Assembly (NCBI RefSeq): GCF_021028975.2
Contig: NC_059435.1
Span: 13,888,001 to 13,952,000, forward strand
Origin: Sphaerodactylus townsendi
Lineage: Eukaryota
DNA length: 64,000 nt
Direction of reading: 5' to 3'
Shown piece by piece: positions 1-63,680 of this stretch (position 1 is its first letter; the number at the start of each line of letters is the position of its first letter). Below the pieces are notes generated by a model that saw nothing but the letters and a program-made list of their open reading frames with translations, was not told the origin of the DNA and made no database searches. A program made the translations under genes and the position numbers.

Positions 1-480
1 GGGTCTGTGGCAATTCCCCAGGGGGGAAGTCTTTGGGGTCCAAAAGGAACCCCATCGTTAATGGTTGGGAATGGTTGGGCTTCAAATTATTCACAGGCAG
101 GGGCTTCGCCTGGCGGCCAGTGGGCCCACACTTTACTTCATATGTGAGGGCCCCAGGACTCTGTGTGATGGAGTGTGGGCCCCGCCAGGTGTCGTTCTCT
201 CTCTTGTCTACCAAGTGGCACGGAATGAACACCTGGTCCCCTACTGAGACTGTTTGTTCTTTGCAGCGGTGGCCATACTGCTCCTTTTGCTTAGCCTGGG
301 CCTTCTCAAGATTCTGCAGGCCCCCCTCTTTCTACTGCCTCTCCTTTCTAAAAATGCCTCTGGAATCTCCGGCCACCAGAACCCACACAACTTCCAATGA
401 ATGTTGCCAGTCAGGTTTGGATCTTGCTCTGAAGCAGAGGCAGGGGGTGACTAAGAAGTGCTTCCTGGCGCAGAAGGAGC
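1..480 (-). mobile_element. Degraded Gypsy/Ty3 LTR-retrotransposon pol fragment (integrase C-terminal region)
   Basis: Minus-strand translation NLEKAQAKQKEQYGHRCKEQTVSVGDQVFIP...TWRGPHSITQSPGALTYEV...PVNNLKP fits the Gypsy integrase C-terminal pattern (Q.KQK..YD...F.VGD.V...W.GPY.I....VTY.V...HVN.LKP). Confidence 0.7.
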
Positions 481-559
481 AAGGCGGGGGCAGGGTTTCT
501 TCCTAGGTTTTTTCCTATTGCACAAAAAGGCACCAAGTCCACAATCCCTGTTCTAAATG

Positions 560-1005
560 AAAAAAAGAATCATGCGAATGCGGGAAGGGGAAGTGAGAAT
601 GCTCAGAAAAACTAAGACATGGAGACTGACGGGAAGAAGAGGATAGGAAAATAAGAGGAGAAATAGGAAGATTATCTTTATTACATCAATGATTGTTGAG
701 GACAGAGACTTCTGTAAAACTGTTAACGCACTCCCCTGATTATTATTGTGAGCTCTCGATTATAGGCTGGGGTTAGATAGTTCCAAAGCTATTACGACCG
801 ATAGCGTCTTCACAAAATGGCTTCTCAGAGCTGTGCTTGTCCACTTTATCGGCATATCTGCCGTGAGTGCTTGGGAGGAATACGTTTCAGCAGACTTATC
901 GACAGTTTATATATAGCAGCTGGAAACCCAAGAAAACTGGCAGCAAAGAAAAGGTTAAATGTGGACAAATTATACAATCTATTTTAGGTGATTCCCCTTC
1001 CCCAA
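560..1005. repeat. Segmental duplication, copy 1 (copy 2 at ~63049-63490); carries a minus-strand AATAAA (677-682) followed by a pyrimidine-rich tract
   Basis: Near-identical sequence AAAAAAGAATCATGCGAATG...GGTGATTCCCCTTCCCCA at both loci; ORFs 867..1118 and 63353..63664 share SWxPKKTGSKEKxKCGQIIQSILGDSPSP. Confidence 0.9.
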
Positions 1006-1268
1006 TCCTCTGGGGAATCCTCCTCCCCTTCTCCAACCAGCCTTTCTGGGGGAAACTGGGGGAAACTTTCTGGGGGAAATTGGTCTTTCTGGCTATGGCT
1101 GCTCAAGCTTTTTCATGACATTCTTCCTGGGTGTGACTGAATCTCTTCCTCCGATGCTCTTCCCCCAATTCCTTGGAGGCTTTCTGGGGGGAACCAGCCT
1201 TTCTGGCCATGGCTGCCTTTTCATCCATGGATCTCTGGTCTTTCTGGATAGTTCGGGAGATCTCTTTA

Positions 1269-1704
1269 TTACAAGCTTTCGTCTTTTCTTTTGGTGGAAT
1301 GCTCTACCTCCAGCTGTCCGGGCCTTGCGGGACCTTGGTGAATTCCGCAGGGCCTGTAAGACTGAGCTATTCCACCGGGCCTTGGGTGGGGGGGAGGTGG
1401 CCGCGGTTTTATCACCCCCCCACTGAAGTTGCTGCTTTTCATCTGGCCGGACCCTGGTGTCCATCTTGGGTCCTACCTATCCCCTCCCTCCGCTGGCCTT
1501 TAGATCAGGCGCTTTGTTGTTTTAACTGGTATGTAACTGTAATTGTTATTTAAGTTTGTAAAGTTTTAAGTTTTTAATGAATTAAGCTGCATTCTTGTAT
1601 TTGAAATGTTTTGCTGATTGTTGTTTAAAGTGCAGCCGTTTTGTGGGCAGCTTCTCGAGCCCTTACGCCGAGAGTGGTAAACGGCTTATAAATCTCATAA
1701 TTAA

Positions 1705-1767
<63 letters not shown>

Positions 1768-2147
1768 ATGAATGGAGGCATTAAGCCATTCTTGCACACT
1801 TAACTTCCAGATTGTAGAATCTCCGCTTTCTAGATACGATTTTGATATTTTGATCCAATCTCTTATGTTTTTTCTGGAAGATGCAGAATACGCATCGGGG
1901 TTGTACACCTTGCCTGATTCAAGCCACCTGTCCAATTTTCGTGGGATGTTTTCTGGATAATTGTATTCTATCGCCATACATTCCTCAAGCCATCTCTTCA
2001 GATTCTCGTTCGCTGTTTCAGACTTTTTGCTTTTTAATTTTGTAATCGATGCTTCAAGCCATTTGTCATTTAGATGTAATTCAGTCAATTCCTTATTTGG
2101 CGGCATTGTAGGCCGCCTGAATTGTCTATAACCTTCTTCTTTGGGGG
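1269..2147 (-). pseudogene. 3' part of an unknown minus-strand ORF (PKEEGYRQFRRPTMPPNKE...EWLNAS/TKRKDESL*), interrupted by L2 and cut off by a hAT insertion
   Basis: Open frame 2147-1773 with globular-protein composition; removing the L2 at TGGA continues in frame to TAA at 1269-1271, which overlaps an AATAAA. Confidence 0.55.
1295..1772 (+). mobile_element. 5'-truncated L2-type LINE 3' end with (TAAA)n tail
   Basis: WNALPPAVRALRDLGEFRRACKTELFHRAL is the typical L2/CR1-group ORF2 C-terminus; 3' UTR and (TAAA)n at ~1702-1768; TGGA at both junctions (1295-1298, 1773-1776). Confidence 0.85.
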
Positions 2148-3379
2148 CAGTGACGTAGGTATAGATTTTTATGGGGGGGGTTCGGGGGAGAGGCCACGCC
2201 CCCACCTGCCTCTGGGGAGGCGTGTACGCCTCCCAAGCCCACCCAGTCTACAGAAGTGCTTATAAAACTGGCTCTCGAGGACAGGGATGGCAGACTCCCG
2301 TGACCCTTCCCGCCCGCCCCCACCAGCTGGGCTCCCAGCTGTACCCATTTAATCCCTTCTCTCTCTCCCCTCCAGGCAGAGGGGTGGCTTCAAGGGGAAA
2401 AAGCGTGAGCTCAGTTGCAAAGCGTGAGGCTTGCGCACACACCCCTTACATGGAAGTGACTGCTGTGATGCTGGAATCCACCCCCAAAGCAGCATCACTT
2501 TCAGTGAGGTGTTTAAATTAGGAGCCCAGATTCTCCTTTTAAATCCACCTTAAAGGGGGGGAGAATCTACAGAGGTCCCCAGATAAAACAATTATTAGAA
2601 AGTGATGCTGTTTTGGGGTGGATCACTTTCAATGTTTAAACATCACTTTCATGTTTAAACTGGGGACCTCAGATTCTCCCTTTAATTCCATGCCAAAGGG
2701 GGTGGATTTAAAAAGAGAATCTGGAAAAATTTGGGGGGTGCCTGCTGTCAGGGGTACAATTGTTAAGCTAGCAGCACCAAACTTTCAGGGTATGTTTAGG
2801 AGACTCTCCTGATGATACCACCCAGGTTTGGTGGAGTTTGGTTCAGGGGTCCAAAATTATGGACTCTCAAAAGTGCAGCCCCCATCTCCTATTAGCTTCC
2901 ATTGGAAACAATGGAGGATGGAGAGCACCTGCTTTGGGAGTCCATGCAACTTTGCAATACCCCTGGACCAATCTTCATGGAAACCAGGGTGTATCAGCAA
3001 CTGAACTATCCCTGATGATACCACCTAGGTTTAGTGAATTTTGATTCAGGGGGTCAAAAGATATGGACCCTCAAATGGGTAGCCCCATCTACTATTAGCT
3101 CCCATTGGAAACAATGGGGGATGGGGCACCACTTTTGGGGGTCCATAACTTTGGACCCCCTGAACCAAACTTCACCAAATTTGGCTGGTTCAATCAGGAG
3201 TGTTGCCTGATGATAGCTTGAAAATTTGGTGTTGCTAGCCCTAAAACTGCGCCCTCTGCAGGCCAAAACCAAAAAAACACTTAAAAATACAAAAGCCCAC
3301 AAATGGGGGGGGGGGCGTGCAGCTTCAGACATGCAATGGGGGGTCTGAACCCGAGAACCCCCCCTTACCTACGTCCTTG
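2148..3379. mobile_element. Non-autonomous hAT DNA transposon
   Basis: Imperfect TIRs CAGTGACGTAGGTA (2148) / TACCTACGTCCTTG (3366-3379); perfect 8-bp TSD TTTGGGGG (2140-2147, 3380-3387); internal reiterated GGGGTCCAAAGTTATGGACCC-type motifs. Confidence 0.9.
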
Positions 3380-6300
3380 TTTGGGGGGCTTTCTGAAATA
3401 TTTTTCCAGCTGAGCATGTCCCTGTTGGTTCTTGCAGATTCTGGCGTAGATCTCCATATTTTCCTTGCGCTTACTGAAATACGTTAATTTTGTGTAGTCC
3501 AGTTTCCTATGAAAAGCAAATGATTTAGAAGTAGTACATCTGAAGCAAATAATCTCACAAGCTTTTAAAAAATCTGTTTAAATATGCTCTTCCAAGCCCT
3601 CCCTCTCTTGGGCATTCTTTGGACCCAAGCCCTGGGCACCACCGCATGACCACTGGCCATGGCTGAGCACCACCACAAACCCCCCCTTACCTACGTCCTT
3701 GTTTGGGGGGCTTTCTGACTGGTTTGTCTGGTTTGTTGAGAATTCTCAGTTTCTGGATTGTTTCCTCATGAATACGGTATCTTTGACGCTCTGTCTTGAT
3801 TTGAGGCAGTTTCGTTGTTTGTTTGGGATCACACAGATATTTTTTCCCACATAATATTTTTTATTAATTTCCTTCTTTAAAAAAACATTGAACATAAAAC
3901 ATACATGAAACCATTGAAACGCATAAGACACCAACAAATATTAACATGTAACAAATGACCCACATTTACAGTTACCCAAACATAATCTATCCTACCCCTA
4001 CTACCCATAACAATAACACATAATTCAATAAATCTAAATCATATCAGTTACTTCACTATTCTTTGGTAATTTATTCTTTAGCTTTAATAAACTTAAATAT
4101 CTATACTATACTACCTTATTTTTTCATTCCATATTTTTAATATGTTTAACCTACAAATATACCTTGTATTTCCTTAATGCTATCGTCCTTCATATTTTAA
4201 TTTAAATAAATTTCTTTTCTTATCTAGGCCCTTTCAATATCCATAATCATTGATTTTTTATCCTTTTATTGTGATGTAACTACTTAATGCTTATTGCTTT
4301 TGGACTTCCCCTGTTAAGTAACTGAATCCATGTTTATTTTTCCCTTAATAAAGGTATACAATTTATTTTGTAATACAACTTTTTTGCAGATTAACTTATT
4401 TATTTATTTTATTTATTTATTTATTCGTTCCACTTTTATACCGCCCTCCCCCTAGGGGCTTATTGCAATATAGTTTTGTAAACCATTTCATATTATATAT
4501 TCTTCAATCATTTTATCCTTTGAACTCTTTTCTAGATATATAATTAGCTTCCCCCAGAGTTTTTCAAAACTTTTCTTGTGGGGAGTTCTTTCAATCTAGA
4601 TAGATAATCTGTCCATATTTAGGTATTCTATAACTTGGGTCATCCATTCTTCTTTTGTTGAATTTGAAGCTTCATTCTTCCATATACTTTGGCTATCCTC
4701 ATCCTTGCAGCTGTAGATATATATAAAAATAAGTCAATATTAAGATCCGGAACTTTCTTTATTCCTAATCCTAAAAGATATATTTCTGGAGTTAGTTCAA
4801 ATGATACCTTTGTTATCTTTTTCATTGTTGTGTGTATTTCTTTCCAGAATTTTTTGATTTCAGGGACAAGTCCACCACATGTGTAATAATGTTCCAGTCT
4901 CTTTCTTGCATTTCCAACATAGTGATGAGTGGTCTGGATATATTTTTGCTAACTTATAGGGTGTTAAATACTATCTGTGTAAGAGTTTCAGGAAATTTTC
5001 CCTTAGTTCTAAACTGGCAGAGAATTTACTGTGTATTTTAAAAGAAAGATTCCTCCCAGTCTTCATACTGTATATCATGTTTGAAATCTTTTGCCCAACT
5101 AATCATAACTTCCTTCACATTTTCTTTCTCTGTTTGTAGTAATATAAGGAGTTTATATAGTCTGGTTATTTTTTTATTTTTATCATCCATCAGTATTGTG
5201 TCTAGCTCAGTATTTTGCTTATTTATTTCCATGTATTTTTTGTCTATTATCAGCTGTTGTCTTATTTGGTCATATGTAAACCAATGGCATTCTGCTTCTC
5301 CTATCTTAATATTTTCTCTAATTTTAAATTGTGTTTCTTGATTATTCCATAGTAATATTTCTTTGTAGGTTAGCCATGGTTTATTATGTGCATTTTGAAC
5401 ACTTTGACAACTCTGTGTCCTTGATACCCAGTATGGAATTTTGCTGTAAAAGTTGTATTTATATCTTTCCCAGATTGTTATTAAAGCTCTCCTTATTATA
5501 TGGTCTTTAAATTGTGTTGGTTCTTGCAGATTCTGGCGTAGATCTCCATATTTTCCTTGCGCTTACTGAAATACGTTAATTTTGTGTAGTCCAGTTTCCT
5601 ATGAAAAGCAAATGATTTAGAAGTAGTACATCTGAAGCAAATAATCTCACAAGCTTTTAAAAAATCTGTTTAAATATGCTCTTCCAAGCCCTCCCTCTCT
5701 TGGGCATTCTTTGGACCCAAGCCCTGGGCATCCTGCATGACCACTGGCCATGGCTGAGCACCACCACAAACCCCCCCCCCCTTACCTACGTCCTTGTTTG
5801 GGGGGGGCTTTCTGACTGGTTTGTCTGGTTTGTTGAGAATTCTCAGTTTCTGGATTGTTTCCTCATGAATACGGTATCTTTGATGCTCTGTCTTGATTTG
5901 AGGCAGTTTCGTTGTTTGTTTGGGATCACACAGATATTTTTTTCAAGTTCATGTATTTAGATTTGCTTTGCATCTTTTTAGACCTGAATGGTCTATTAGC
6001 TTCTTCTTTGTTGGGCTTTCTGGCCGGGTTTCTCGGTTTGTTGAGAATTCCCTTGTTTTGCGTGACATTTGTTTGTTTCCCTCCACGAAGACTGTATGTT
6101 TGATTCTTTGTCTTAATTTGAGGCAGTTTAGTTTTGTTAGGAATCAGATCGAGATTTTTCCAGGTCATGTATCTCATGCTGTGCATCTTTCAGTTGCCCT
6201 TATAAAATATTTTCAGGCTGAGGCTGTCCCTGTTGGTTTTGGCAGATTCTGGCGTGAATCTCCATATTTTCCCTTCTTGGCGTGTTGAAATATGCAAATT

Positions 6301-9300
6301 TTGTAGTCAGTTTCCTATGAAAAGCAAATGATTTAGAAGCAGTAAATCTTAAGCAAATAATCTCACAAGCTTTTAAAAAATCTGTTTCAATATGCTCTTC
6401 CAAGCCCCTCCCCTCTCTTGGGCATTCTTTGGACCCCAGCCCTGGGCATCCCTGCATGACCACTGGCCATGGCTGAGCAGAGCGGAGCAGCTGCCAGAAG
6501 CTTTGCCTTGCCATTTTTTCCTCTCCCAAGCCACACCTGGCCACTCCATTACCAAAATACCACACCTTCCAACCCTCACCCACCACAAGCCTTACCTTCC
6601 AGCCTGCCCCAACCCTCCTACTCACCTACCGACTCTTAAGCGACACCTTCCAGCCCCTCCCACCACCCCAAGCCACTCCGTTCCATCACTCCCACCCACC
6701 CACACACCTTCCTTTCTTCCTCCTGTTTTCACAGCAGATCCACCATTTCCACATGGTGTGTGGATGACCTACCATGTAAAATTCAATGTGTAATGGATTA
6801 TATTACACTTGGGACTTTATGCCAGCCCCTCCCTCCTGCCAAAATCAAAAGAAAATCATACCTTTTGGATTGAGAGTTATTTTAGGTATCTCGGTCTGTC
6901 TGGACTGTCTGTTCCTTAAGATCAGTGTTTCTACGCTTCCCCTTGTGTTTTACTAGGGTTGGTAAATGGGGGGGAAAAAATTAAGCCCCAGTTCGGATTG
7001 GGTCCTGGATTCGGGTGTATGGGCTCCGGATCCCCCAGTTCCAAGCCTGCCAGGTTTCAGGATTTACCCGAATTACAGGGTGACATCGAGATTCTTGGAT
7101 GCGTTTTATTTTGTGCTGTTTTTTTCAAGTTTTGGCATGCAGGGGCGCATTTTTAAAGGTATAGGCATGAAAATTTCAGGAGTATTATCTTCTGAATACT
7201 GTCCTGGTGATTTCCTCGAAGGTTGGTGCAGTTTTAGATTCTGAGGGGTCCAAGTTATGGACCCCAAACTGGATTACCTCTATCCCCATTGTTTCCAATG
7301 GGGCTAATCGAAAGGCAGACTTTATTTTGAGGGGTCCATAACCTGGGCCCCTGGACCAAACTTCACCAAACTTTGGCAATATCCTTGAAATCCTGGGGTG
7401 TTGTCTGATGATAACCTGAAAATTTGGTGTTGCTAGCCCTAAAACTACACCCTCTGCAGGCCAAAACCAAAACACTTTAAAATACAAAAGCCCACAAGCG
7501 AGGCGCTGAACTTCGGACATGCAATGGGGGGTCTGAACCCGAGAAACCCCCCCTTACGTCCGCTTGTTTGGGGGCTTTCTGGCGGAATTTCTCGGTTTTG
7601 TTGAGAATTCTTTGTTTTGCATTGTTTCCTCCACGAAGACTGTATGTTTGATTCTTTGTCTTAATTTGAGGCAGTTTAGTTTGTTGGAATCAGATCGAGA
7701 TTTTTTCCAGTTCATGTATTTCATGCTGTGCATCTTTCAGTTGCCCTTTAAAATATTTTACTTTTTCAGGCTGAGGCTGTCCCTGTTGGTTTTGGCAGAT
7801 TCTGGCATAGATCTCCCATATTTTCCTTCCTTGGCGTGTTGAAATATAGAATTTTGTAGTCCAGTTTCCTATAAGAGAAAGCAAATGATTTAGAAGCAGT
7901 AAATCTTAAGCAAATAATCTCACAAGCTTTTAAAATCTGTTTAAATATGCTCTTCCAAGCCCTCCCTCTCTTGGGCATTCTTTGGACCCCAGCCCTGGGC
8001 ATCCTGCTTGACCACTGGCCGTGGCTGAGCAGCCTTGGAGCAGCTGCAAAGCTTTGCCTTGCCATTTTTCCTCTCTGGCCACACCTGGCCACTCTCCCCA
8101 CCCAAATACCCACCTTCCAACCCTCCCACCATCACAAGCCTTACCTTCCAGCCTGCCCCAGCCCTCCTATTCCCTTGCTGACTCTTGAGCGACACCTTCC
8201 AACCCTCCCACCACCCCAACCCACACCTTCCTTTCTTCCTCCTGTTTTTCACATCAGCAGATCCACCATTTCCACATGGATTGTGGATGACCTACATGTA
8301 AAAAATTCAATGTATGGATTATATATCACACTTGGAGTCTTTTGCCCAGCCCCACTCCCTCCTGCCAAAATCAAAAGGAAAATCATACCTTCTTTTGAAT
8401 TGAGAGTTATTTTTAAGAGTATCTCAGTCTGTCTGGACTGTTTTGGCCTGCAGAGGGCGCAGTTTTAAAGGCTAGCAACACCAAATTTTCAGGCTATCAT
8501 CAGGCGACCTCCTGAACGTTATGCCCAAGCCATATTTGGTGAAGTTTGGTTCAGGGGTCCAAAGTTATGGACCCCCAAAGGGATCACCCTATCCCCATTG
8601 TTGTTTCCAAAGGGAGCTAATCCCGAAATGAGGCCAGGGGCTATCTTTGAGGGTCCATAACCTGGGCCCCCTGGACCAAACTTCACCAAACTTGGCAGCA
8701 TAATCCAGGGTATCGTCTGGTATCCTGAAAGAGGCGGGTGTTGCCCCAGCCCTAAAACTGCCGCCCTCTACGGGCCAAAAGAAACTCAAAAACACTTTAA
8801 AAATACAAAAGCCACAAGCGAGTAGGGGGAGAGCTTGATTTGTGCAATGGGGGGGTCTGAACCCGAAGCCCCTTACCTACGTCCCTGTTTGGGGGCTTTC
8901 TGGCCAGTTCTCTCGGTTTGTTGAGAATTCTTTGTTTTGCATTGTTTCCTCAAAGAAAACTGTATGTTTGATTCTTTGTCTTAATTTGAGGCAGTTTAGT
9001 TTTGGAATCAGATCGATATTTTTTTCCAGGTCATGTATTTCATGCTGTGCCATCTTTCAGTTGCCCTTTAAAATATTTTTTTTTTTTTTTTTTTTTTTCC
9101 AGGCTGAGGGCTGTCCCTGGTTGGTTTGTGGCAGATTCTGGCATAGATCTCCATATTTTTTCCCTTCTAGCGGCGTGTTGAAATATGTAGAATTTTTTGT
9201 GTAATCCAGTTTCCTATGAAAAGCAAATGAATTTAGAAGCAGTAAATCTTAAGCAAATAATCTCACAAGCTTTTAAAAAATCTCTTTAAATATGCTCTTC

Positions 9301-10260
9301 CAAGCCCTCCCTCTCTTGGGCATTCTTTGGACCCAAGCCCTGGGCATCCTGCATGACCACTGGCCATGGCTGAGCCGCGATGGAGCAGCTGCAAAGCTTT
9401 GCCTTGCGCACCATTTTTCCTCTCCCAAGCCACACCTGGCCACTCCTGCCCCACCCAAATGCCCACCTTCCAGCCCTCCCACCACCACAAGCCTTACCTT
9501 CCAACCTGCCCCAGCCCTCCTACTCACCTGCTGACTCTTAGCGACTTACCTTCCAACCCTCCCACCACCCCAAGCTACTCCTCGTTTCCATCCTCGCCCC
9601 AGCCCAACCCACACCTTCCTTTCTTCCTCCTGTTTTTCACATCCAGCAGATCCACCATTTCCACATGGTGTGGATGACACCCTGTGAAATTCAATGTATG
9701 GATTATGGCTGCACTTGGGTCTTTATGCCAGCCCTCCCTCCTGCCAAAATCAAAAGAAAATCATACCTTTTGAATTGAGAGTTATTTTAGGTATCTCGGT
9801 CTGTCTGGACTGTCTGTTGTTCCTTAAGATCAGTGTTCTACTTCCCCTTGTGTTTTACTAGGGTTGGTAAATGGGAAAAATTAAGCCCCAGTTCGGATTC
9901 AGGTCTGGATTGGCAGTTGTATGGAGGGCTCGGATCCCCAGTTCCAAGCCTGCCAGGTCTGGATTCACTGAATTTCTTGGTGACATCCGAGATTCTCGGA
10001 TGCGTTTTATTATTGCTTTTTTTTTTTCACGTTTTGGCATGCAGGGGCGCATCTTTTAAAAGGTATAGGCATGAAAATTTCAGGGTATCTTCTGGATTCA
10101 TTGTCCTGATGATTTCCTCCAAGTTTGGTGCAGTTTGGTACAGGGGTGAGCCCAAAGTTATGGACCCACAAACTGGTTGCTTCTCTATCCCCCATATTTT
10201 CCAATGGGGAGCTAATAGAAGATAGGAGGCTATCTTTGAGGTCCCATCCGCCAACTTGGA
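3380..10260. repeat. Complex tandem amplification (units ~1.3-2 kb: 5515-7560, 7561-8885, 8886-10260; partial unit 3380-3846)
   Basis: Blocks recur in the same order, e.g. ATGCTCTTCCAAGCCCTCC at ~3584, 5676, 6392, 7947, 9292 and AAATCATACCTT at ~6853, 8380, 9758. Confidence 0.9.
3847..5514 (-). mobile_element. 5'-truncated L1-clade LINE (ORF2 3' region and 3' UTR)
   Basis: Minus-strand FKDHIIRRALITIWERYKYNFYSKIPYWVSR...ECHWFTY...KITRLYKLL...WAKD...EDWE is colinear with L1 ORF 43923..44546; T-rich 3' end at ~3850. Confidence 0.85.
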
Positions 10261-10829: not shown

Positions 10830-13800
10830 CATGTTTGTTTTTTTAATTTTTTATTATTGTATGAGAGTATTTATACATTTGTTTACATTTGAATTATTTT
10901 TCTTTTTTTCATCTATTTTTTTTTCCATTTCCCCTCCCCTTCTCTTTGTTGGATTTTTTTCCATGCGGCAGGCAGCAGGAGGGTTCATTCTTCTTATTCT
11001 CTTGTTCCATGGCTCTTAGTTAAAATCCGGCATCTTCAATCCATTCTTTATACACTGTCCATATCTTCTTAAATATCTTCTATTTTTTCTTTCCATAAAA
11101 TGTTACTTTGTCCAGTCTTTCGAGATATCTCTAGCTGTATTTGTTTCCCATACATATTCCAATACATCTTGAAACTGTCCATTTTTTATTATCTTTTTCC
11201 ATTAGCGTAACACTTTCGTGTGCTGCTCTGATCATTATTTTATGCATTGGTTCTAGAGCTTCTATTCACTCTAATGTCATCTAATTATCCCCACAATTAA
11301 TTAATTTCTTTGTTGCTTCAATCTTTACTTTGACCAAATGGTTCTATACATATTTTAAAATATTCTCCCAAAACTTTTCACCATTTTACATTTCTATCCA
11401 CCTTATGTGTATAATATGCTCCATTTTTCTCCACAATGCACCAACACTTTGGGCTCAGGCCTTTAATCATATGGGCTGACTGCTTCCTTATTGGGGTTCT
11501 ATACCATTTCTGGGTACCAACCTTTTCTTTCTAATTCCACATATTTTCAATCTTTATCTTCTTCATGTTTATCCATTATTCTTTTCTATTTTCTTCCCTC
11601 TAAAGAAATCTTTCTTTTTTTTCCCATTTCCCAACATTCTTATCATAAATTCTTTATCCTCCACTATATATTTACATTTTTACCTACTCCTATAATCTTC
11701 CCTTTCATTTGTTTCCTTGGGTCTTAACCATTGATTCTGTTCATACATTCACCTTTCTATTCTCGGACACTATTAACTTTTCCCACTTGTCCTCTCGTTT
11801 ACGGCCAATGATTCTCTCTCCCCACCCAGCTCTATTAGGTTTTTTTTGTAGTGGTATAATTTCACCCTCATAGACTAAAATCTAATACCTTATGTATCCC
11901 TTCTTCTTTCAATTTTTTCTTATAAGTTTTAGCCTTCTATTCCAGTCCGCTTCCACACTGGGGGGCCCTATCCAGAGATACCAGGCATCCATTTTACCTC
12001 TCCATTTTTTCCCAAATATCCAAATTCCACTTTTTCTTGGACCCTATTATTTTTTATTTGTATCATTTTTTTATAATCATTTGTATAAACTACCACTTAG
12101 TTTACCCTATTCCCTTAATGTAAAAAGCTTCATTTTCAAATTTCAGCTTCATTTTGATGATATTATACTTCATTAATATCTAATAAAGCTTTTTTTATCT
12201 GGAATGCTTCATAATATTCCTGGGTTTGATTATTCCCCAGCCTAAAGAGATCATTTGGCATATATACTATTTTATTCATCACTCTAGCATTTTTTTTTTA
12301 TTAAATACCCATTATACTTTTTTATTTTCTATCCCATTCTTCAAATTGTTTTTTTAGCAATTTCCATTGGTAATGTTCTAAATAAATAGGGAGATTTTAG
12401 AGCAGCATACACATCTTTACTGCTTTTATCTTCCCAGATTATAGATGATAGGGTTTTGCTTCTAACTTTTTTATTTGGTTTTGAATTCTTTTTCCATCCT
12501 ATTTTTCCATAGTTATACTTATACATCTTAGCCTTGTATCTTTTTTCTGGTAGAAATTACAATTCCTAAATATTTGATTTTCTTCTTTTAATATTTCTTT
12601 ATTAAAATTTGTTTCTGCTTTCTATATTTCACTCCTAATATTTCTGTCTTGTCCATATTCACTGTTAATCCTGAATATTTCTTAAAATCCTCTAAGAATT
12701 ATTTTTAACTCTTTTCATTGTGTCTTCAGGTAGGTTAGTTGTTTATCAGTAATAATACATGGATCTGCAAACATATTTATTTTAATTTCTTCCTTATTTA
12801 TTTTGTATCCTTTTATTCTTCCGTTATTTACATTATTCTGTACTGCTAAATACTCCACTTGGCCAAAGTTACAAATAGAGGCAAGCCTTGGAGACAGCCA
12901 GGCATTCCTGTTTTACCTCTTTTTTATATAAACTATTCCTGATAATCCTTCATTTACTCTTATCTTGGCAGCTTTAGCGTTTCCTATATATTTCTTTTAA
13001 TACGTTTTATGAATCTTTCTCCCAAATCAAAATTTTTTTTATTGTTTGGAAAAGAAATTCATGAAAGCTTACTGTATCAAATGCTTTGTATACATCTAAG
13101 TTTTATCATAGCATAATATTTATTTTTCTTTCCATGCTCTAGTATATTTATGCACGTTTCTTATTGGATGACATATGTCTCTTCCTTTTACAAATCCATA
13201 TTGGTCTTGTTCTATTATTTTTGGAGGTATATTTCTAATCCTATTTGATGATAATATTTTACCAAATATCTTATAATCTTGATTTAATAAGCTTATTGGT
13301 CTATAAGAGTCTACTGAAGTTTGCATTTTTCACTGGTTTCAGGATTGTCCACTTTATCTCCGTCTTTCCTCTCTCCATGTGCATCCTGGGGCTCTCTGGC
13401 CTCTTATTGTTGTATTAAATAAGCATTTACGGAGTTCTGGAACTAAAATTTCTGCCGATGCTTTATGTAATATTCATGTAAACCCATCTGTTCGAGGGAG
13501 TTTATTATTTTTTTAATTCTCTAATGTAACCTTTAATATTTCCTCTTGTGTTATTTCTTCTATAGCTATTCTGTGTCTTCCTGAGGAATCATTTTATTCA
13601 TTTTTCCCTCATATTGTATATTGCTTTCATAATCAAATAGTTTTGGTAGAAGCTTCTTAGAATTTTTTTTTTCTAATTAATTTATTTTCCTAAGTTTATT
13701 ATCTGATTCTTTTCATCTTTTAGCTTTTTTTACTTTCGTTTGTTTCTCTCTTTTTTTCTTCAAATAATTTGCTAATCTTTTAACTGAGTTATTATATTAC

Positions 13801-16570
13801 ATTTCTTTGAAACTGGTTTTTTTACCCAAATCTCCTTTTTCCATAGATCCATCTTATCTATTTCCTCTAGCTTATTTTGTAATTGTCTTATTATTTCATT
13901 TTTTTATTAGGTACATCCATATTTGGTATAGAGTTTAAACCTATTTTGTTTTTAACTCTTACTTCTACTATTTTGTTCTTTCCTTATTTATTTTCTTCCT
14001 TTCCATCCTAACCTCTCTAGCCAAACAATAACCTCTAACTACAGCCTTGCCGAGGCATCCCAGGTTATATGGCCTGCTACTATGAATTTTTTATTCTCCA
14101 AGAAATAGGAATTTTATTTTTTTGGCCATTAGTTCTTTTCTATCTTTTTTCTCCTTTTCCAAAATCCTTGTTATTATATCTCCATTTTATATTTGTTTCC
14201 TTCACCTGCACATCATCCTGAACCTTGGCCACCAGCGTGATCTGAAATCCATTTTCTTTATGTGTTTTCTATATCTATAGGCTGTAAATTATTCATGTTC
14301 TTTAACGATGCGTTAATCTATGTACATGTATATTTTTTTATCTCTATTAGAGAAATAAGATTGGCTGGCTTGATTTATTCAATTCCTTAAAACTTTCTGC
14401 TATATTCCATTTTTCAACATCTAAATTGTCCTCCAAGATCCATATTAAAATCTCCCATAATCAATGTGTGTCTCCATTAGAGAAATATCTTCTGAAGTTT
14501 TTTTTGAATTGTTTTTCTAAATATTTTTTTCTGTTTTCCTATTAGGGACATATACATTCATCAGTGTTACTTGGTTTCCTTGAATCTTTGCTTTTTTATT
14601 ACCATCAATTCTCCCTCTGTGTCCCGGTAATCATTTCTTGTAACTTAAAATCCAAAGTTTCTTTTACTAAAATGGCGGCAGCCCATTCTTCTTTTTTACT
14701 CTATGGTTAGGTTGCTTCTACCAACAACTTTCCAGCCTGGAATGTTTATCAAAACATTTCTGTCTGCCCTTTTTTTTTGTGTGTTTCTTGAAAGGCAGAT
14801 CCAGATCTGGTTATGTTCTTGCTTTATAAATCTGAAAGCTATCTCTATGTCTCTTAAAGCCGAATTTAACCCATTAACATTCATTGAAATTATTTTTCAG
14901 TTTGACATTCCCTGCCATTTTTTTTTACAATGTGAACCTTTTTCCCCACCTGCTTGCATTTTCAATTTTATATTTCAGTTTGTCCCCCATTTTTCTTTCC
15001 CTCTTCCCCTCTCCCTCCCTCCCATCTCCTTCTGGTGCATATAAGAGAATCACTTCTCTACCCATGTAGGAGTTTTGCATTGTTATTCCCTGCACAGCTT
15101 TTCTGGCAGCTAGCCCCTTTTTTTAATAGAATTATGTCATGTTTCACTAAGAGTTTTTTTTTTCCTTTAAAAGTTTGTTACAGATACATCGATTACACAA
15201 TTTTATTGACATTCAGTGTTGTATATAGTCAGCTTCCCTTATGTCGTTCCAGGTTTCTGGAGCTTTTTGTCCAAGTTCTATGAAGGGTCATATTGCACCA
15301 GCTGGTGTTATGTAGTTTAGCTTCGTTAATAAACAATTCACTCACTACATCCTATTTAAAACAGTTCTGTTAATATTTTTTAGTTAAAAAATTATTAGTT
15401 AACGAGTAGTATTAGTTTATAGAGTGAAATATTAATTAGAACATTTAATAGTTTGCATGCCAGAAAAAAAGCCTAGAAATTTATCTTACGTCTTCGAGCG
15501 TTTTGTTTTCTTTGGGCTCCTTCAGGGAATATCTTCCTCCTAAGAGACTCAGAAGATGAGCTGTCTTCCCTGGATTACATTGGCAGGCAATGGAACTACC
15601 GACTTTTTTAGTAAAAGTTTTCAACTTGAAAGGCATTAGGGTTTTGCAATTAATTTCTCATTTCCATCATAATGTAGGAATCCTGTTTGGATCCATTTTA
15701 TTTTTTTTTCCAGCTTTGAACATTGCTGTGTGCGTAAGAGGTAAATTAATAGTCTCTTTATTTCCAGTGTTTCTGGAGATAAGATCATTTTCTAACAATG
15801 ATTTTTTCCTTCCCAAATTTCGAAAGCTCAAGAAATTGCTTTCAGTTGTTGTATTATTGTCTCTTCTACGAGTTTCAGAATTAGCATCTTATCGAAAGGT
15901 ATGTCCGGCTGGTCTATTGCCCATTTTCTGAATGCTCTGTGAGCTCTTTCAAAACAAGATCGTCTGCCTCGATATTCATTGATTTCAGCCATTCGAGGCC
16001 TATCACCAGGGAGTTATTTGTTTTTTTTCATCCTTCAATGGTGCAGAATTCCCACCAAAAGCGTATACTCATCCTCGCGAGAAGTCTATTAAGACATTTC
16101 TGCTATTTTGCTTTTTTTAAAGGTTTCTATCCTCCTTAGGAATTTGTTTTTCTGTAAACTTATTAACTTTTTCCATTTTTCAAAGATCCAAGAGTATGTT
16201 TGCTTTCTTATCTCTTTTATATTGTCACCCATTGCCAGCAGAAATTCTTTTTTGGAATGTGTTTGTTCCAAAGCCTTAATTCATTTTCCATTACTATCAG
16301 ACAGGAACTCTGCCAAGTCTTTACTTTGTAGTTAAATTCTTAGATGGCATGGTTATTGTTTTACAAGCTTTTTCCAAGAAAAGTAAGGGAACTCACACCA
16401 GCTTTTCTGACCTTCACAGCTGTCCGGAATCTTTTTTATTCTTCAATCTATATGGAATTCCTATGGCAGAATTATCAGTATTTTCTTTAATTATCTGGAG
16501 TTTTCTTTGATCCGGACGGAGAGACCTCAAAAGCTTTCGACTTTCCTCTAGTCACTCATGCATGCGGAGT
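10830..16570 (-). mobile_element. Near-full-length, frameshifted L1-clade LINE (ORF1 ~16560-15500; ORF2 APE-RT ~14890-11050)
   Basis: MNVNGLNS (APE start, 14884), SDH motif ~14240, SYRPISLLNQDYKIFGKIL and EQDQYGFVKGR (RT), KYLG ~12570, CWCHC..HI zinc knuckle ~11440-11405; ORF1 start VTRGKSK. Confidence 0.9.
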
Positions 16571-48931: not shown

Positions 48932-51900
48932 CTACCTAAGCTCAGGTTTTTGGTAGCATTTGTTGTTTATTACTTTTGCTAAGAAAGTTGCAACCTTAAG
49001 AGTTATTTCAGGGGACCGATCATTTAGTAAGTAAAATACTATGTGTGTTGCAGGTAGGCTAGGTTTTGTTTTAAGAAGTGGAGTAATATAAATACTACGT
49101 ATAGAAGAGTAGAACTGACAGTTTAAAAAGATATATGCTGGATTGAATCCCACTTCATTTTAATGGAGCATGGGACACCTTCTCTCTGAGATTGGTATGC
49201 CTTGATATCGTCCTTCCATTACTTTAGAGGGGAAGGAGTTAAGCCTAACCAGCACTCAAAATGCTCTGCGTTGAGATGGATCGTCAAGACCCCTAGCAGA
49301 AAAAAAAATATTGGGCCATCTTGCCATGCAAAAGGGTTAATTTTAGCTTGATTCAAGGAGAGCAAACTTGGCTGGTTGTTGAGGGGTTGAAACTTTTGCT
49401 GTTCCACATCAAGGGATTCTTTTGTCTAAGGAGCCCTAAAAATGCGTCTTACTCATCATTTAAAAAAGAGATTCAAAAAATCTCAATGAGAAGCCCAAAG
49501 TTTTTATTTTAATTTCTAAGTTAGTTAGCCAGGTTGTACTCAGTGGGTCAGATTTAAAGTAGGATAGGAGCGAACTTTCTTTTGCCTTAAAGAACATTTT
49601 CAGCCAGAGATCTAAAAAAAGGTAATCCACGCTTTTGTTTCCACACAGTGCAAAACCCAGTTCCAAGATATATTACTGAGTTTTGGAACGCATTTTGGGA
49701 CTCCCAGGATTTTTCTGTAGAAAACAGACTGAATTTTTTTTTTTTCTACTCATATGGGCTCCAAAGTCTTGGACTCCATAAAGGGTGCTCCATACAATAA
49801 AGGGAGATATTATTTTTTGCTTCAAAGAGATTTTGGAGGCAGCTGGGATAATTTGATTTCCTTTGGCATAAAAAAAAATTGTGTAATTGGAATGGAGGAG
49901 CAATTGGCAGTTCTGATTAGTTTTGCTTTTGTGTTTTAGTCCATGCGTGTTAAGGGTTGTATTGGAATATTATGCCCAGGTAATTAAACTCCTTTACTTG
50001 GGATAGGGAGTTACCTTCAATTTTCCAGTTTTAGAACGGCTTCCAGCTTTTTTGAAAAAACTATAATTTTTTGGATTTGAGGTAATTTATGAACCAATCT
50101 GGTTTTGTTTGACAGTAATTGTGAAAAGCTTGTAAATATCTTAGAAGGCCAACTCTAGTTGAATGAAAGAGAATGTAGTAGTATCGTCAGCATATAGTAG
50201 CAAAGGAGTGTCTCTGGTGTCTAATTTTGGGGGATGGCCATTGTTGACAGTTTTATTGAGCACTGGTGCTAAATCATTTAGAAATAAATTAAATAGGTTA
50301 TTGGAGCCAGAATGCATCCCTGTCTCAGCCTTGAGTATTGATCGGGGAATTTTGGAGATAATTCACCTTTGTTTGTACATTTAACCTGGCTATAATTATC
50401 AGAATGAATTTTTTTTGATGAGAAATAATAAGCGGGCTCCATCTGCAGCTTTCCCTAAGTTTTTTTTCCCAAAGTTATATTCCTTTGGAGAGAGTCAAAG
50501 GCACTTTTCAAATCAATAAATGCCACATATAATTTCTTTGTACCCTCTGTCCTTCATATATTTATTTGCTAAAAATGCCAGAAGAAAACAGTGGTCTATG
50601 GTAGATTTGCCATCTGTAAACCCAATTTGTTCTTGGTCCTATAATTGAATACCTAAGGATCCAGGCCTTAAGAATCGCAGCTCTAGATGTTTTGTGTAGA
50701 GAGTTTGCCTATGATAGATAATAGGCTAATAGGCCTACTATAATTTTCTGGGAAATTTGGGTTTGCCTTGCTTTTAAATATAGGGACAATGATGGAGTTG
50801 GAGCCAAGCCTCCGGAATAATCTCCAAAGCGATCTATTATTAGGTGAAAAAAGGTTTGCTAATGGTGGGAGACCACCAGTTGAGAATATTGTTTACTAGA
50901 AGCTCAGCCATGGGAATGCCCGTCAGGACCAGGTGCTTTCAGGTTTTAATTCTTGTATTAGCTCTTCTACTTCTTCTGCATTGACAGGAGTCCATACAGG
51001 AAGCTGGTTTAAAGTATTGTTGTCAATCAGTTTTAGGGGTTCACTAGAAACATTAAAGATGGAACAGTAATGGTTATTCCAGATATGAGGAGGAATACTT
51101 ATGGAAGGTGTTTGTTCTTTCAGATTTAGATGTCTTGCGACAATTTGCCAGAAAGTTTTCCCATTTTTTGAATTTAAGGCAGTAGCTAGTTGGTTCCAAT
51201 TTTGTTGGTAGAAGGCATTTTTTTTTGGATAATTTTTCTTCGGAACATTATTTTTTGATTTAATAAGTTTTTGAGAGACTCATGATCATTAAATTTACAA
51301 AATTGATTATGCAGGTATCTTAATAGTTTCTTATCCGTGTTACACTCTGCATCAAACCATGAGCAGGAGAAACCTACCAGTTGTTAGATTTGCAGTCACT
51401 GGAGGGTTTTGCCAAAAGATTTTTAGTAAGTCTATCAGGTTGGAATAATGCTTAATTATACTTTCATTGGACTTAGAGGAGACTAGCTCAAATCTGACTT
51501 TGCCCGCTTCATCTGAATCAAGTAATGTTGACAGTTTTCCCCCAGTTTCCTCATTCCAGATGATCCTTTTTAGGGTACTAGATTCCGGACAAGACTGGTC
51601 TTGAGTGATTGGTTCTTGGGTATTATATTTATACAGAAGAGAAACTTCGATTGGTATGTGATCACTTTCAGTTCTATTTCCTGTAGAGAACATGTCAATT
51701 ATTTTAAGAGTCTCACAGGTACACAGGCCATAGTCAATTACGCTACAACCTTGTGGGGAAATAAATGTATATTCTTTAGAAGAAGGAAATTTGTCTAAGC
51801 CATTTAAAATTACTAGATTATTGGCCATACAGAATTCAATTAACCTGAATCCCGCCTTATTTATTTTACAATCATTTGAGTTCCTTGGGTAAGATAAGAC

Positions 51901-52444
51901 AGCAGGTAACTCGTCATTTTTATCAAGGTTCAGCTGGTTGATCAGCGACAGATTACTGGCACCTATTCTGGCATTAAAGTCGCCTAAAAGAAAAATTCGA
52001 GAGAGATAGTATTTTGACCTTAATTCAATCCTCAAATAGTTAGTTAGTTTTTCCTGCATTGAGAGGCACGACATTAGAATGAGAAGCACGACATATATAT
52101 ACATTTATAATAATCAAATTATAATCTTGTAGTTGAATTGAAATTGCTTGAGCTAGAGGGTTTAATGGAGGAATTGAAAGCACTTGTATAGAATGTTTAT
52201 ATAGAATAGCTAATCCTCCGCTGGGGCGTCCTCTGTCCGCATTTTTCTGGGCATATAGGTTCTGAGAAATGTAGCCATCAAGTTTTATATCTCTTGTTGC
52301 CCAAGTTTCTTGCAGCAGTAGACAGTCAAATAATTTCACATAATTCATAAAATCTGGGTCCGATTGCTTATTTTCCCATCCTGCAATGTTCCAAGAAAGT
52401 ATTTGAAGCTTAGGGAGTGGGGTGACTGATGTGGAAGTAGGTAG
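48932..52444 (-). pseudogene. ORF2 (APE endonuclease plus reverse transcriptase) of the RTE-X-like element, frameshifted in this assembly
   Basis: ORF pieces 52040..52348, 51352..52104 and later fragments carry APE, RT and C-terminal RCPC..HI.F.C..Y / KVATFL motifs. Confidence 0.85.
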
Positions 52445-54049
52445 TCAATCTTCATTTGTAATTTGACCTAAAAGGTTACAGGTGTCAAAGAACACACATC
52501 CTTTTGCTTGTTGAGGAGTAGGAATACTTGAAGCCTTTTGGATGGGGCTCGATAGTTCTAATATAGCACCTTTCTGTTGGGTTGATAATGTTGTTGAGGT
52601 ACACTCCATTCTTTCTGTGTGTTGTTCATTTTGTACCTGTTTTGGGGACTCGGTTTCCAACAGTTCCTGTGCCCATGATTTGCTTTTGGGGGGCATGTTA
52701 AAGTCCACATCTAATATTCTATTGACATGTAAATCCACTTCATAGTCAATTTGTTCATTCATGTATTGTTTGGTAGGGTTTAAACTGGATGCCGTGGGAG
52801 GCTGAGATGGATCAGAATGAGTATGGATCAGCAGTTCATCACACTTCTTTAATAGGTTGGAAGGACTTTCAGTATTGAGAAGTAGTTGTTCATCTGTCTC
52901 AGAGCATAGTAGATTTGATTTAGACGTCTCAGAATAATTTACAAGGTAACGTTCGATTGGATTGGGTAGCATATTTAGGTCCACCTTGTCATCTGGTTCA
53001 ATAGCCCTGGTCTCAGTCTGTAGAGCAGTGGCAGGCTCTTTAGTAGTTGCAGCACTTAAGGCTTGGGCCACCCAAGGTTCAGGATTAAGGCTCTGAGGCC
53101 TGGGGTCCGACTTCACATGAGGTCCTCTATCAGGCAAACCGTTGTCCTTAACAACTCTGTCAACTTTAGTTTTGTAGATGAACGGTGTGATGTTCGCATT
53201 GGTAAACACACGTGTTGGACGGATCCTTTTCTGGGCAAGGGCCTGCAATTGATCTAATAATAGCCTTGGTATGGTTTCAGAGCCAAAAGTAAGAATGACT
53301 CTTTGTGGGTCATGCTCATATAGATTATGAATTTGGTCAAGCACTTTAGTTTCCAATAGGTCAATAATAGAGCTAGTCTTTTTTTTTAGTAAGATGCTGA
53401 GATGTCTTTTTGCCAGGTTTAAAGGAGCCCATATGGGTCTGACACCACGGTAATTATATACATAACAGCATACTTTGTTCTTCTCTAAAAGTAAACACTG
53501 AGTATCAATAGTGCTTTTATAAAACATTCTGGGTACAGGTTGGCTTACCCTGTTCGTGGTTAGCAGAGCTTTTTTAACAGTAGATAGCTGGTCATTGATG
53601 TTATTAAATTCACTAAAGATGTTTTTAAGAGTTCTTGCCACAAGATGGCATAGTTCATGGGTGCTGGGTACATCTGATATTGTTATTGGGAAGTTGTCTT
53701 CGATATTATTAGGGTTAGCCATCGGGTTTCCTGCAGTAAGATTAGATGCACAGTCTTCCGAGTTCTCTCTGCTGATTAAGGGGATAGGGTTACATTGAGT
53801 GGGTTTTTCCATGCCCTCCCATTCACAGTCACGTTCACCCAATCTGTGCTCTAGTTCTAGTAGAGAAAAACTGTTTGAAGTTGGAGTCAAAATAGTCGTT
53901 TTCTGTGCCGAGGTTAGATCATTTGTAACAAGAAAATCTCCTATTTTGAGTTGTTTACACAGTGGAGTGGAGATTAGCTCTGTCTCTTCCAGGTCTCTCT
54001 GCCTTTTTTTCCCGAGGCATTTCTCTATCAGGTTTATTAGCAGGGAAGA
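52445..54049 (-). CDS. ORF1 of the RTE-X-like element (frame open from ~54049; start codon uncertain)
   Basis: 481-aa ORF whose frame extends upstream through GKKRQRD...KQLKIGDF; ends at TGA 52447-52445 directly before the APE domain. Confidence 0.75.
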   Translation of the reverse strand, partial: SSLLINLIEKCLGKKRQRDLEETELISTPLCKQLKIGDFLVTNDLTSAQKTTILTPTSNSFSLLELEHRLGERDCEWEGMEKPTQCNPIPLISRENSEDCASNLTAGNPMANPNNIEDNFPITISDVPSTHELCHLVARTLKNIFSEFNNINDQLSTVKKALLTTNRVSQPVPRMFYKSTIDTQCLLLEKNKVCCYVYNYRGVRPIWAPLNLAKRHLSILLKKKTSSIIDLLETKVLDQIHNLYEHDPQRVILTFGSETIPRLLLDQLQALAQKRIRPTRVFTNANITPFIYKTKVDRVVKDNGLPDRGPHVKSDPRPQSLNPEPWVAQALSAATTKEPATALQTETRAIEPDDKVDLNMLPNPIERYLVNYSETSKSNLLCSETDEQLLLNTESPSNLLKKCDELLIHTHSDPSQPPTASSLNPTKQYMNEQIDYEVDLHVNRILDVDFNMPPKSKSWAQELLETESPKQVQNEQHTERMECTSTTLSTQQKGAILELSSPIQKASSIPTPQQAKGCVFFDTCNLLGQITNED

Positions 54050-63048: not shown

Positions 63049-63680
63049 AAAAAAGAATCATGCGAATGAGGGAAGGGGAAGTGAGAATGTTCAGAAAAAC
63101 TAAGACATGGAGACTGACGGGAAGAAGAGGATAGGAAAATAAGAGGAGAAATAGGAAGATTATCTTTATTACATAAATGATTGTTGAGGACTTCTGTAAA
63201 ACTGTTAATGCACTCCCCTGATTATTATTGTGAATTCTCTATTACAGACTGGGGTTAGATAGTTCCAAAGCTATTACAACAGATGGTGTCCTCACAAAAT
63301 GGCTTCTCAGTGCTGTGCTTGTTGACTTTATCTGCATATCTGCTGTGGGTGCTTGGGAGGAATAAGTTGCAGCAGAATTATCGACAGTTTATATAGAAGT
63401 TGGAATCCCAAGAAAACTGGCAGCAAAGAAAAGATTAAATGTGGACAAATCATACAATCTATTTTAGGTGATTCCCCTTCCCCAGTCCTCCATTCTGTTC
63501 CTTCCTTCCTTCCTTCCATTTTTTCACTTCATCAGATCCATCATTTCCACATGGTGTGGATGGCACCATGTAAAATTCAGTTTATGGATTATTTTACACT
63601 TGGGTGTTTTTGTCAGCCCCTCCCACCTGCCAAAATCAAAAGAAAATCATACCTTTTGAATTGAGAGTTATTTTTAGGAC
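63049..63680. repeat. Segmental duplication copy 2: 560-1005 joined directly to a homolog of ~6700-6885
   Basis: 63049-63490 matches 560-1005; 63500-63678 matches the CAGATCCA..CATTTCCACATGGTG...AAATCATACCTTTTG block. Confidence 0.85.

What the first reader, a model, noticed from the sequence alone, without database searches (positions are those of the whole stretch)
1269..3846. Reconstructable ~215-aa minus-strand gene broken by two TE insertions
Seen: excising the hAT at its TSD, using the right-junction copy at ~3700, gives the continuous frame ..TKLPQIKTERQRYRIHEETIQKLRILNKPDKPVRKP|PKEEGYRQFRRPTMPPNKE..; excising the L2 gives EWLNAS|TKRKDESL*. Upstream repeat copies supply an acceptor (TTTGCTTTTCATAG, AG at 3508-3507), a Kozak-like AAAATATGG (ATG 3457, MEIYARICKNQQG..), a coiled-coil stretch (KGQLKDAQHEIHELEK) and an upstream donor AAAAG|GTATGA (~6861). 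AATAAA lies at 1270-1265 and 682-677. Inference: an unannotated lineage-specific gene. The reconstruction merges several copies.
Basis: partly seen in the sequence, partly recalled or inferred. Interest (0 to 1): 0.7.

Follow-up and report, generated by a model that had tools for sequence, protein, structure and literature searches.

The report
Broken copy of unnamed squamate gene
This is a real protein-coding exon in a gecko genome, interrupted by two transposon insertions and likely dead, from an unnamed gene family found here only in lizards and snakes; an unbroken relative lies 107 kb away, and likely transposon-free copies are transcribed in a related species.

Summary
The coding remnant is real; the proposed gene model is only partly right. 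Window 3506-1772 (minus strand) is the large coding exon of an unnamed squamate family: N-terminal coiled coil, modules of five Trp-bearing helices, often a C-terminal membrane helix. 17 of 18 hits are named lizards or snakes; one is unnamed. A 1,232-bp hAT-type element (8-bp TSD) splits the exon. Removing it from the single copy at 3508 already gives 164 open codons. An unbroken paralog lies 107 kb away (62% identity, dN/dS about 0.3-0.4). In a related species one of three RNA runs covers the exon, with hAT-free reads. Not supported: ATG 3457 as start, the donor at 6861 (intronic in paralogs), the short ending after the L2, and both poly(A) signals. Family sequence behind the L2 is not the ancestral C-terminus. 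The upstream partial copies form a tandem array, likely from ectopic recombination between DNA-transposon copies. Their frameshifts are largely assembly errors. Verdict: a likely pseudogene in a birth-and-death family; the family itself is uncharacterised and is the more interesting object.

The parts
1772..2139 (-). 3' coding part of the large exon: one five-Trp helical module
   Evidence: 62% aa identity to paralog L002, E 6e-45; dN/dS 0.30-0.37; model of 4-5 helices, pLDDT 66
2140..2147 (-). right copy of the 8-bp target-site duplication
2148..3379 (.). non-autonomous hAT-type DNA transposon, 1,232 bp, 14-bp TIRs; puts a stop 5 codons into the element
   Evidence: TSD and TIR; very high copy in 3 of 3 contig sets; longest stop-free stretch 118 aa; the superfamily name is inferred from TSD length and TIR
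3380..3506 (-). 5' coding part of the exon with left TSD copy (3380-3387); contains ATG 3457; middle segment deleted in frame
   Evidence: 19 of 35 aa identical to L002; in frame with the 3' part
3507..3677 (-). intron end with splice acceptor (AG 3508-3507)
   Evidence: homologous site in 5 paralogs; 4 RNA reads end at the equivalent AG
3678..3845 (-). middle coding segment ending at a TSD-like copy (3702-3709) and a 24-nt stub of the hAT left end
   Evidence: duplicated at 5775-5942
3846..5514 (-). L1-like 3' fragment lying between two 428-bp direct duplicates (3423-3845, 5515-5942; 97.7%)
   Evidence: the L1 label is recalled from the ORF2 C-terminus, not tested
5960..9830 (-). three tandem partial copies (intron piece, acceptor, 5' exon part; two end in a hAT left end); none has the five-Trp module
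   Evidence: depth 178-278 over the acceptor region against 26-78 on the module in run X1; cleaner alternative assembly on C3
   Evidence: not GT-conserved as a donor in 3 paralogs; real penultimate exon lies about 500 nt further upstream in 3 paralogs and is absent here; no RNA joint listed
1292..1771 (+). 5'-truncated LINE (L2-like) with (AAAT)n tail at 1699-1773
   Evidence: boundary from other copies; tail; the L2 name is recalled, not tested against a repeat library
1086..1291 (-). piece of a repeat-type exon of the same family, not a 3' UTR and not the ancestral C-terminus
   Evidence: 88% DNA identity over 1208-1086 to the paralog at C11:13.96 Mb; blastx E 3e-5 to family repeats
320..1010 (-). 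sequence homologous to the penultimate intron of paralogs; includes AATAAA 682-677
   Evidence: 81-86% to introns at C11:20.55, 22.93 and 13.78 Mb

Best explanation
The stretch is the large coding exon of one copy of an unnamed squamate gene family, split by a hAT-type insertion and cut at its 3' end by a LINE, and it is likely a pseudogene. Shown: homology to the family, both insertions, past purifying selection, an in-frame stop just inside the hAT, no recognisable upstream or membrane-anchor exons nearby. Inferred: the hAT came in before the split of three related species; ectopic recombination between this hAT and a related element in the upstream intron then made the tandem array of 5' halves; a deletion at the LINE removed the ancestral C-terminus. 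Inferred with low confidence (about 0.35): intact family members are tail-anchored or soluble helical scaffolds that tether membranes to cytoskeleton in one tissue, most likely male germ cells.
For: Five matches in the genome, one an unbroken 298-codon paralog at 62%. 17 of 18 profile hits and 12 of 12 further hits carry squamate names. Window module is sister to that paralog, support 99 in a quick tree. dN/dS 0.37, bootstrap 0.20-0.66. Contigs of three organisms run 24-27 nt into the hAT end. The family's penultimate exon is found in 3 paralogs and not within the fetched C11:13.70-14.05 Mb; membrane-helix exons are found at those 3 loci only. In organism D, 4 RNA reads and 2 contigs run past the insertion point into module-like sequence, and reads at 2107 and 2123 carry paralog letters in 18 of 18 and 19 of 19. 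Array units change over inside transposon sequence.
Against: The 164 codons on either side of the hAT have no stop or frameshift, and the one indel seen against organisms B and D is 12 bp, in frame. Relative-rate counts do not show relaxation (11 vs 5 and 4 vs 7). No RNA run of the window's own species was available. The 24-27 nt into the hAT are under the tool's 31-letter bar for bridging. 469 joints were not shown, so a hAT-skipping joint is not excluded. The assembly upstream of 5.6 kb is error-rich, so an upstream exon could be hidden. Tissue of the RNA runs is not given.
Confidence: 0.8

Rival explanations
1. The copy is alive: the hAT is removed by splicing or is polymorphic, and a shortened protein starts at ATG 3457 or an upstream exon.
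For: Frame intact on both sides; the hAT left end holds AG|GTAAGG and several AG follow its right end; in organism D most reads cross the acceptor unspliced, as if transcription started in the intron.
Against: The donor is phase 2 and the first three AG after the element need phase 1 (read from the sequence); no such joint among the 15 listed; ATG 3457 is not conserved; RNA reads mostly carry paralog letters.
Confidence: 0.07
2. One reading: a stand-alone, lineage-specific two-exon gene of about 215 aa with donor 6861, ATG 3457 and a short tail after the L2.
Against: Donor not conserved and no RNA joint; family is squamate-wide; the short tail conflicts with conserved TCC-AT in 3 of 3 paralogs.
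Confidence: 0.05
3. Much of the architecture (array, 428-bp duplicate, in-frame deletion at 3390) is assembly artefact and the true locus is simpler.
For: Window 5.6-32.7 kb is only 87-89% identical to two C3 contigs of the same sequence, with gaps outnumbering mismatches; one C3 copy has an open frame where the window copy has frameshifts.
Against: The C3 contigs hold the same three units in the same order; read-derived contigs match 1831-1978 and 1993-2171 with 0 differences and show raised depth over the repeated acceptor.
Confidence: 0.08

Closest known systems
Uncharacterised squamate proteins, e.g. UniRef A0ACB8FUJ4 and A0ACB8FV27 (Sphaerodactylus), XP_033021794 (Lacerta), XP_039180006 (Crotalus), KAG8138982 (Naja)
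   Same: Same five-Trp module (W-L-x-x-S spaced about 22-23 aa) and the same exon start.
   Different: Full-length members have 4-6 modules and a long N-terminal coiled coil, and 5 of 28 proteins have a C-terminal membrane helix. This copy has one module, no upstream exons found, no anchor, and two insertions. Their database names (myosin-11-like, trichohyalin-like, tiggrin-like) are automatic and differ from one another.
TMCO5 (transmembrane and coiled-coil domain 5)
   Same: N-terminal coiled coil plus C-terminal transmembrane helix; expressed in spermatids (PMC6687282, search listing and start of abstract only). A possible 'works like' model for intact members.
   Different: No PF14992 match at E up to 1 in 11 long members; the genome's one PF14992 match is on C4, not at these loci; the Trp module is not described for TMCO5 (recalled).
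Unprocessed pseudogene in a birth-and-death tandem family, disabled by transposon insertion (general class, from established knowledge)
   Same: Duplicated exon with intron flanks, past purifying selection, TE insertions, several broken and intact paralogs.
   Different: The disabling DNA transposon also seems to have served as the recombination site that multiplied the 5' half of the exon.

Membership tests
unnamed squamate five-Trp-module family | module of five W-L/I-x-x-S/A/C helices alignable by profile | tested here: met
unnamed squamate five-Trp-module family | conserved phase-2 acceptor at the start of the large exon | tested here: met
   spliced reads at the equivalent AG
unnamed squamate five-Trp-module family | upstream coiled-coil exons and C-terminal membrane exons at the locus | tested here: not met
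   none found in C11:13.70-14.05 Mb for this copy; part of that stretch is error-rich
hAT DNA transposon (non-autonomous) | 8-bp TSD | tested here: met
hAT DNA transposon (non-autonomous) | short terminal inverted repeats and subterminal repeats | tested here: met
   14 bp, 12 matching; inverted repeats
hAT DNA transposon (non-autonomous) | link to an autonomous hAT transposase | not tested
   no transposase-length frame inside; no repeat library on hand
L2 LINE | 5' truncation and short tandem-repeat 3' tail | tested here: met
L2 LINE | RT/endonuclease phylogeny or match to an L2 consensus | not testable with these tools
   fragment has no coding part of useful length; the name is recalled
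TMCO5/SMCO2 (PF14992) | match to PF14992 | tested here: not met
TMCO5/SMCO2 (PF14992) | N-terminal coiled coil plus C-terminal TM helix | tested here: inconclusive
   TM in 5 of 28 family proteins, absent from this copy; coiled coil read from sequence only
pseudogene | disabling lesion in the reading frame | tested here: met
   stop 5 codons into the hAT
pseudogene | no productive transcript in this species | not testable with these tools
   no RNA run of this organism was offered

The most novel reading that the evidence does not exclude
The remnant marks an undescribed, squamate-restricted family built on a new five-Trp helical repeat module, turning over fast in tandem arrays in geckos and snakes. 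In these geckos DNA transposons both kill copies and multiply them, and in one related species several hAT-free copies are expressed in a restricted tissue, some with out-of-order splicing from inside the module back to the exon's acceptor (circular RNA or splicing between tandem copies).
Probability: 0.4. Interest if true: 0.6.

Novelty: new member of a known kind. Interest (0 to 1): 0.35.

Why it matters
As a locus it is an ordinary transposon-broken paralog. Its value is as a pointer: it leads to a lizard-and-snake protein family of up to about 1,000 aa with no convincing Pfam, PDB or Atlas match, carrying misleading automatic names, with copy-number change even among close gecko species. 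If expression is gonadal it would be a candidate for fast-evolving reproductive proteins. It also shows that frameshifts in this window above 5.6 kb should not be read as biology.

Tried and rejected
Pfam: no convincing family for the module or 28 relatives; two curated cut-offs are passed (DUF4142 in P0023, Shugoshin_N in P0027), each in one protein, and I read them as helical look-alikes. PDB sequence search with the profile: 0 hits at E up to 1. Fold search: none at E 0.001; best VIA Z 5.9 (integrase N-terminal domain, rmsd 3.6, 85 aligned), retroviral matrix proteins at Z 4.1-5.1, all in the range the tool calls common for helical bundles, so no viral origin is claimed. Atlas: best 0.86, under 0.9, lead only. 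No RNA holder listed for the stretch itself. Genome pattern search for a canonical donor behind the spliced-read letters: 0 matches. Protein search for 67-214 aa relatives: none; for 163-522 aa relatives of L002: only itself. C3:147.61-147.66 Mb palindrome as a real transposed copy: rejected; two N-bounded contigs that mirror window 5.6-32.7 kb. Earlier findings of the scan: nothing in 2 look-ups. Literature: two searches listed no paper whose title or abstract start describes this family; only listings were seen, and most subscription papers and all supplements were not searched. The module tree is the quick search only, and P0030 (a gecko protein) was left out of the gecko label.

Full report
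Observation. The insert at 3379-2148 has an identical 8-bp target duplication and 14-bp inverted ends, and read-derived contigs show it is a very high-copy repeat. It puts a stop five codons in. With it and one duplicate removed, the single copy that starts at the acceptor 3508 gives 164 codons with no stop, lacking the middle segment by an in-frame deletion. A 5'-truncated LINE fills 1771-1292; 7 of 9 other copies listed stop matching at 1292. The names hAT, L2 and L1 rest on these features and on recall, not on a repeat library.

What it belongs to. The 122-aa part matches five places in the genome, including an unbroken frame 107 kb away at 62% identity. That paralog is a UniRef uncharacterised protein of the gecko Sphaerodactylus townsendi, 100% identical. 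A search of 1.84 billion representatives gave 18 proteins; 17 carry lizard or snake names and one has none. A profile search for longer proteins gave 12, all squamate. They share a module with five Trp-bearing helices, 4-6 times in full-length members, after a coiled-coil-like N-terminus; 5 of 28 end in a membrane helix. The window module is sister to the near paralog, with dN/dS 0.30 over 120 codons and 0.37, interval 0.20-0.66, over 95. So it was a working coding exon. The predicted model is a bundle of 4-5 helices at modest confidence, pLDDT 66.

The frame is open and conserved from the acceptor on, and ATG 3457 aligns to Leu in the paralog. The site at 6861 is not a conserved donor in three paralogs; three paralogs have a conserved exon with a GTAAGT donor further upstream that fits the family's protein alignment, and this exon is not found near the window. 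What follows the LINE is not the ancestral tail but a piece of a repeat-type family exon, 88% like the paralog at 13.96 Mb, and then intron-homologous sequence that also holds AATAAA in paralog introns.

The upstream copies. Three units of intron piece, acceptor and 5' exon half lie at 9830-5960, changing over inside DNA-transposon sequence. I infer ectopic recombination between the exonic hAT and a related element in the intron. Depth over the repeated acceptor in run X1 is 178-278 against 26-78 on the module, so several copies are real, with the tool's warning that summed contig depth is no copy number. Their frameshifts are mostly not real: window 5.6-32.7 kb is 87% identical to two N-bounded contigs on C3 that carry the same sequence, with 2,310 gap columns to 1,306 mismatches, and one C3 copy is open from acceptor to hAT. 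A published assembly of this species was gap-filled with nanopore reads (bioRxiv 10.1101/2021.08.13.456260, 12 passages seen); whether it is the assembly held here was not determined.

Other species and RNA. Contigs from organisms A, B and D run 24-27 nt into the hAT end, which suggests an insertion older than their split but is under the tool's 31-letter bar. On the cleaner C3 copy, RNA run X9 of organism D laid 220 reads over all 30 bins from about 6% of the run; in X10 and X11, 122 of 125 and 523 of 523 reads fit only partly, on a G-rich repeat. Four X9 reads and two X5 contigs continue past the insertion point into module-like letters, and a 513-nt contig joins the 5' part to the middle segment and runs 202 nt beyond the end of the stretch; I infer it has no hAT, since contigs entering the hAT stop within 30 nt. 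Its letters were not shown. Those letters match 12 of 13 bases at window 2025-2013, inside the module, which would be an out-of-frame, out-of-order junction; with four reads and no DNA control this is a lead. Most reads cross the acceptor unspliced. No RNA of the window's own organism was available.

Mechanism. Shown: a family exon, two insertions, a stop in the hAT, loss of the ancestral tail. Inferred: a duplicate that lost its upstream and anchor exons, was disabled by the hAT, and had its 5' half multiplied by recombination; likely a pseudogene (0.8). Against this, the frame on both sides of the hAT is still clean and rates do not show relaxation. For intact members I favour a helical scaffold or membrane tether in one tissue, most likely male germ cells (about 0.35), from architecture, expression in 1 of 3 runs and rapid turnover; no tissue label was available.

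Comparison and verdict. It is a member of the unnamed squamate family by module and exon start, but not a complete gene. It is not a TMCO5 member, though TMCO5 is a fair model for how intact members may work. The locus is an ordinary transposon-broken paralog; the undescribed family lifts interest to 0.35.

Noticed in passing
L002:2331-3311 (G000:C11:13,782,467 onward): Intron-free 326-aa frame with a BioT2 (CCDC7-type) domain, E 2.4e-21, starting about 300 nt after the paralog's stop and followed by frameshifted frames; looks like a retrocopy.
   Followed up: partly
L002:775-1146 vs window 9575-9190 and 5760-5580: The intron end is 91-96% identical between the window copies and the paralog while the exon is 71%; identity drops about 18 nt after the acceptor. 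Suggests recent gene conversion of the upstream segment.
   Followed up: partly
G000:C3:147,611,325-147,663,144 (L060-L065): 52-kb palindrome of two N-bounded contigs, 95% alike, both alternative assemblies of window 5.6-32.7 kb; likely misplaced.
   Followed up: yes
window 63049-63678: Orphan piece of the family's penultimate intron (minus strand), 82-91% to other copies, with no exon found beside it.
   Followed up: partly
window 1831-1978, run X1: A second contig with 11 differences in 148 nt at depth 20.6 beside the identical one at 30.3: a divergent allele or a copy missing from the assembly.
   Followed up: no
L004:810-1193 (G000:C6:109.82 Mb): In this paralog the frame is open from an ATG upstream straight through the acceptor; the intron end resembles a decayed coding repeat of the family.
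   Followed up: no
G000:C11:20.55, 20.67, 22.93, 13.96, 13.864 and 16.78 Mb: Further family copies; three have two downstream exons encoding a membrane helix and a 43-aa tandem repeat in the large exon.
   Followed up: partly
window 51352-54049 (minus) and 10900-16500 (minus): LINE frames: a 534-aa frame followed by endonuclease-like frames, and a near full-length L1-like element in the error-rich stretch; labels recalled.
   Followed up: no
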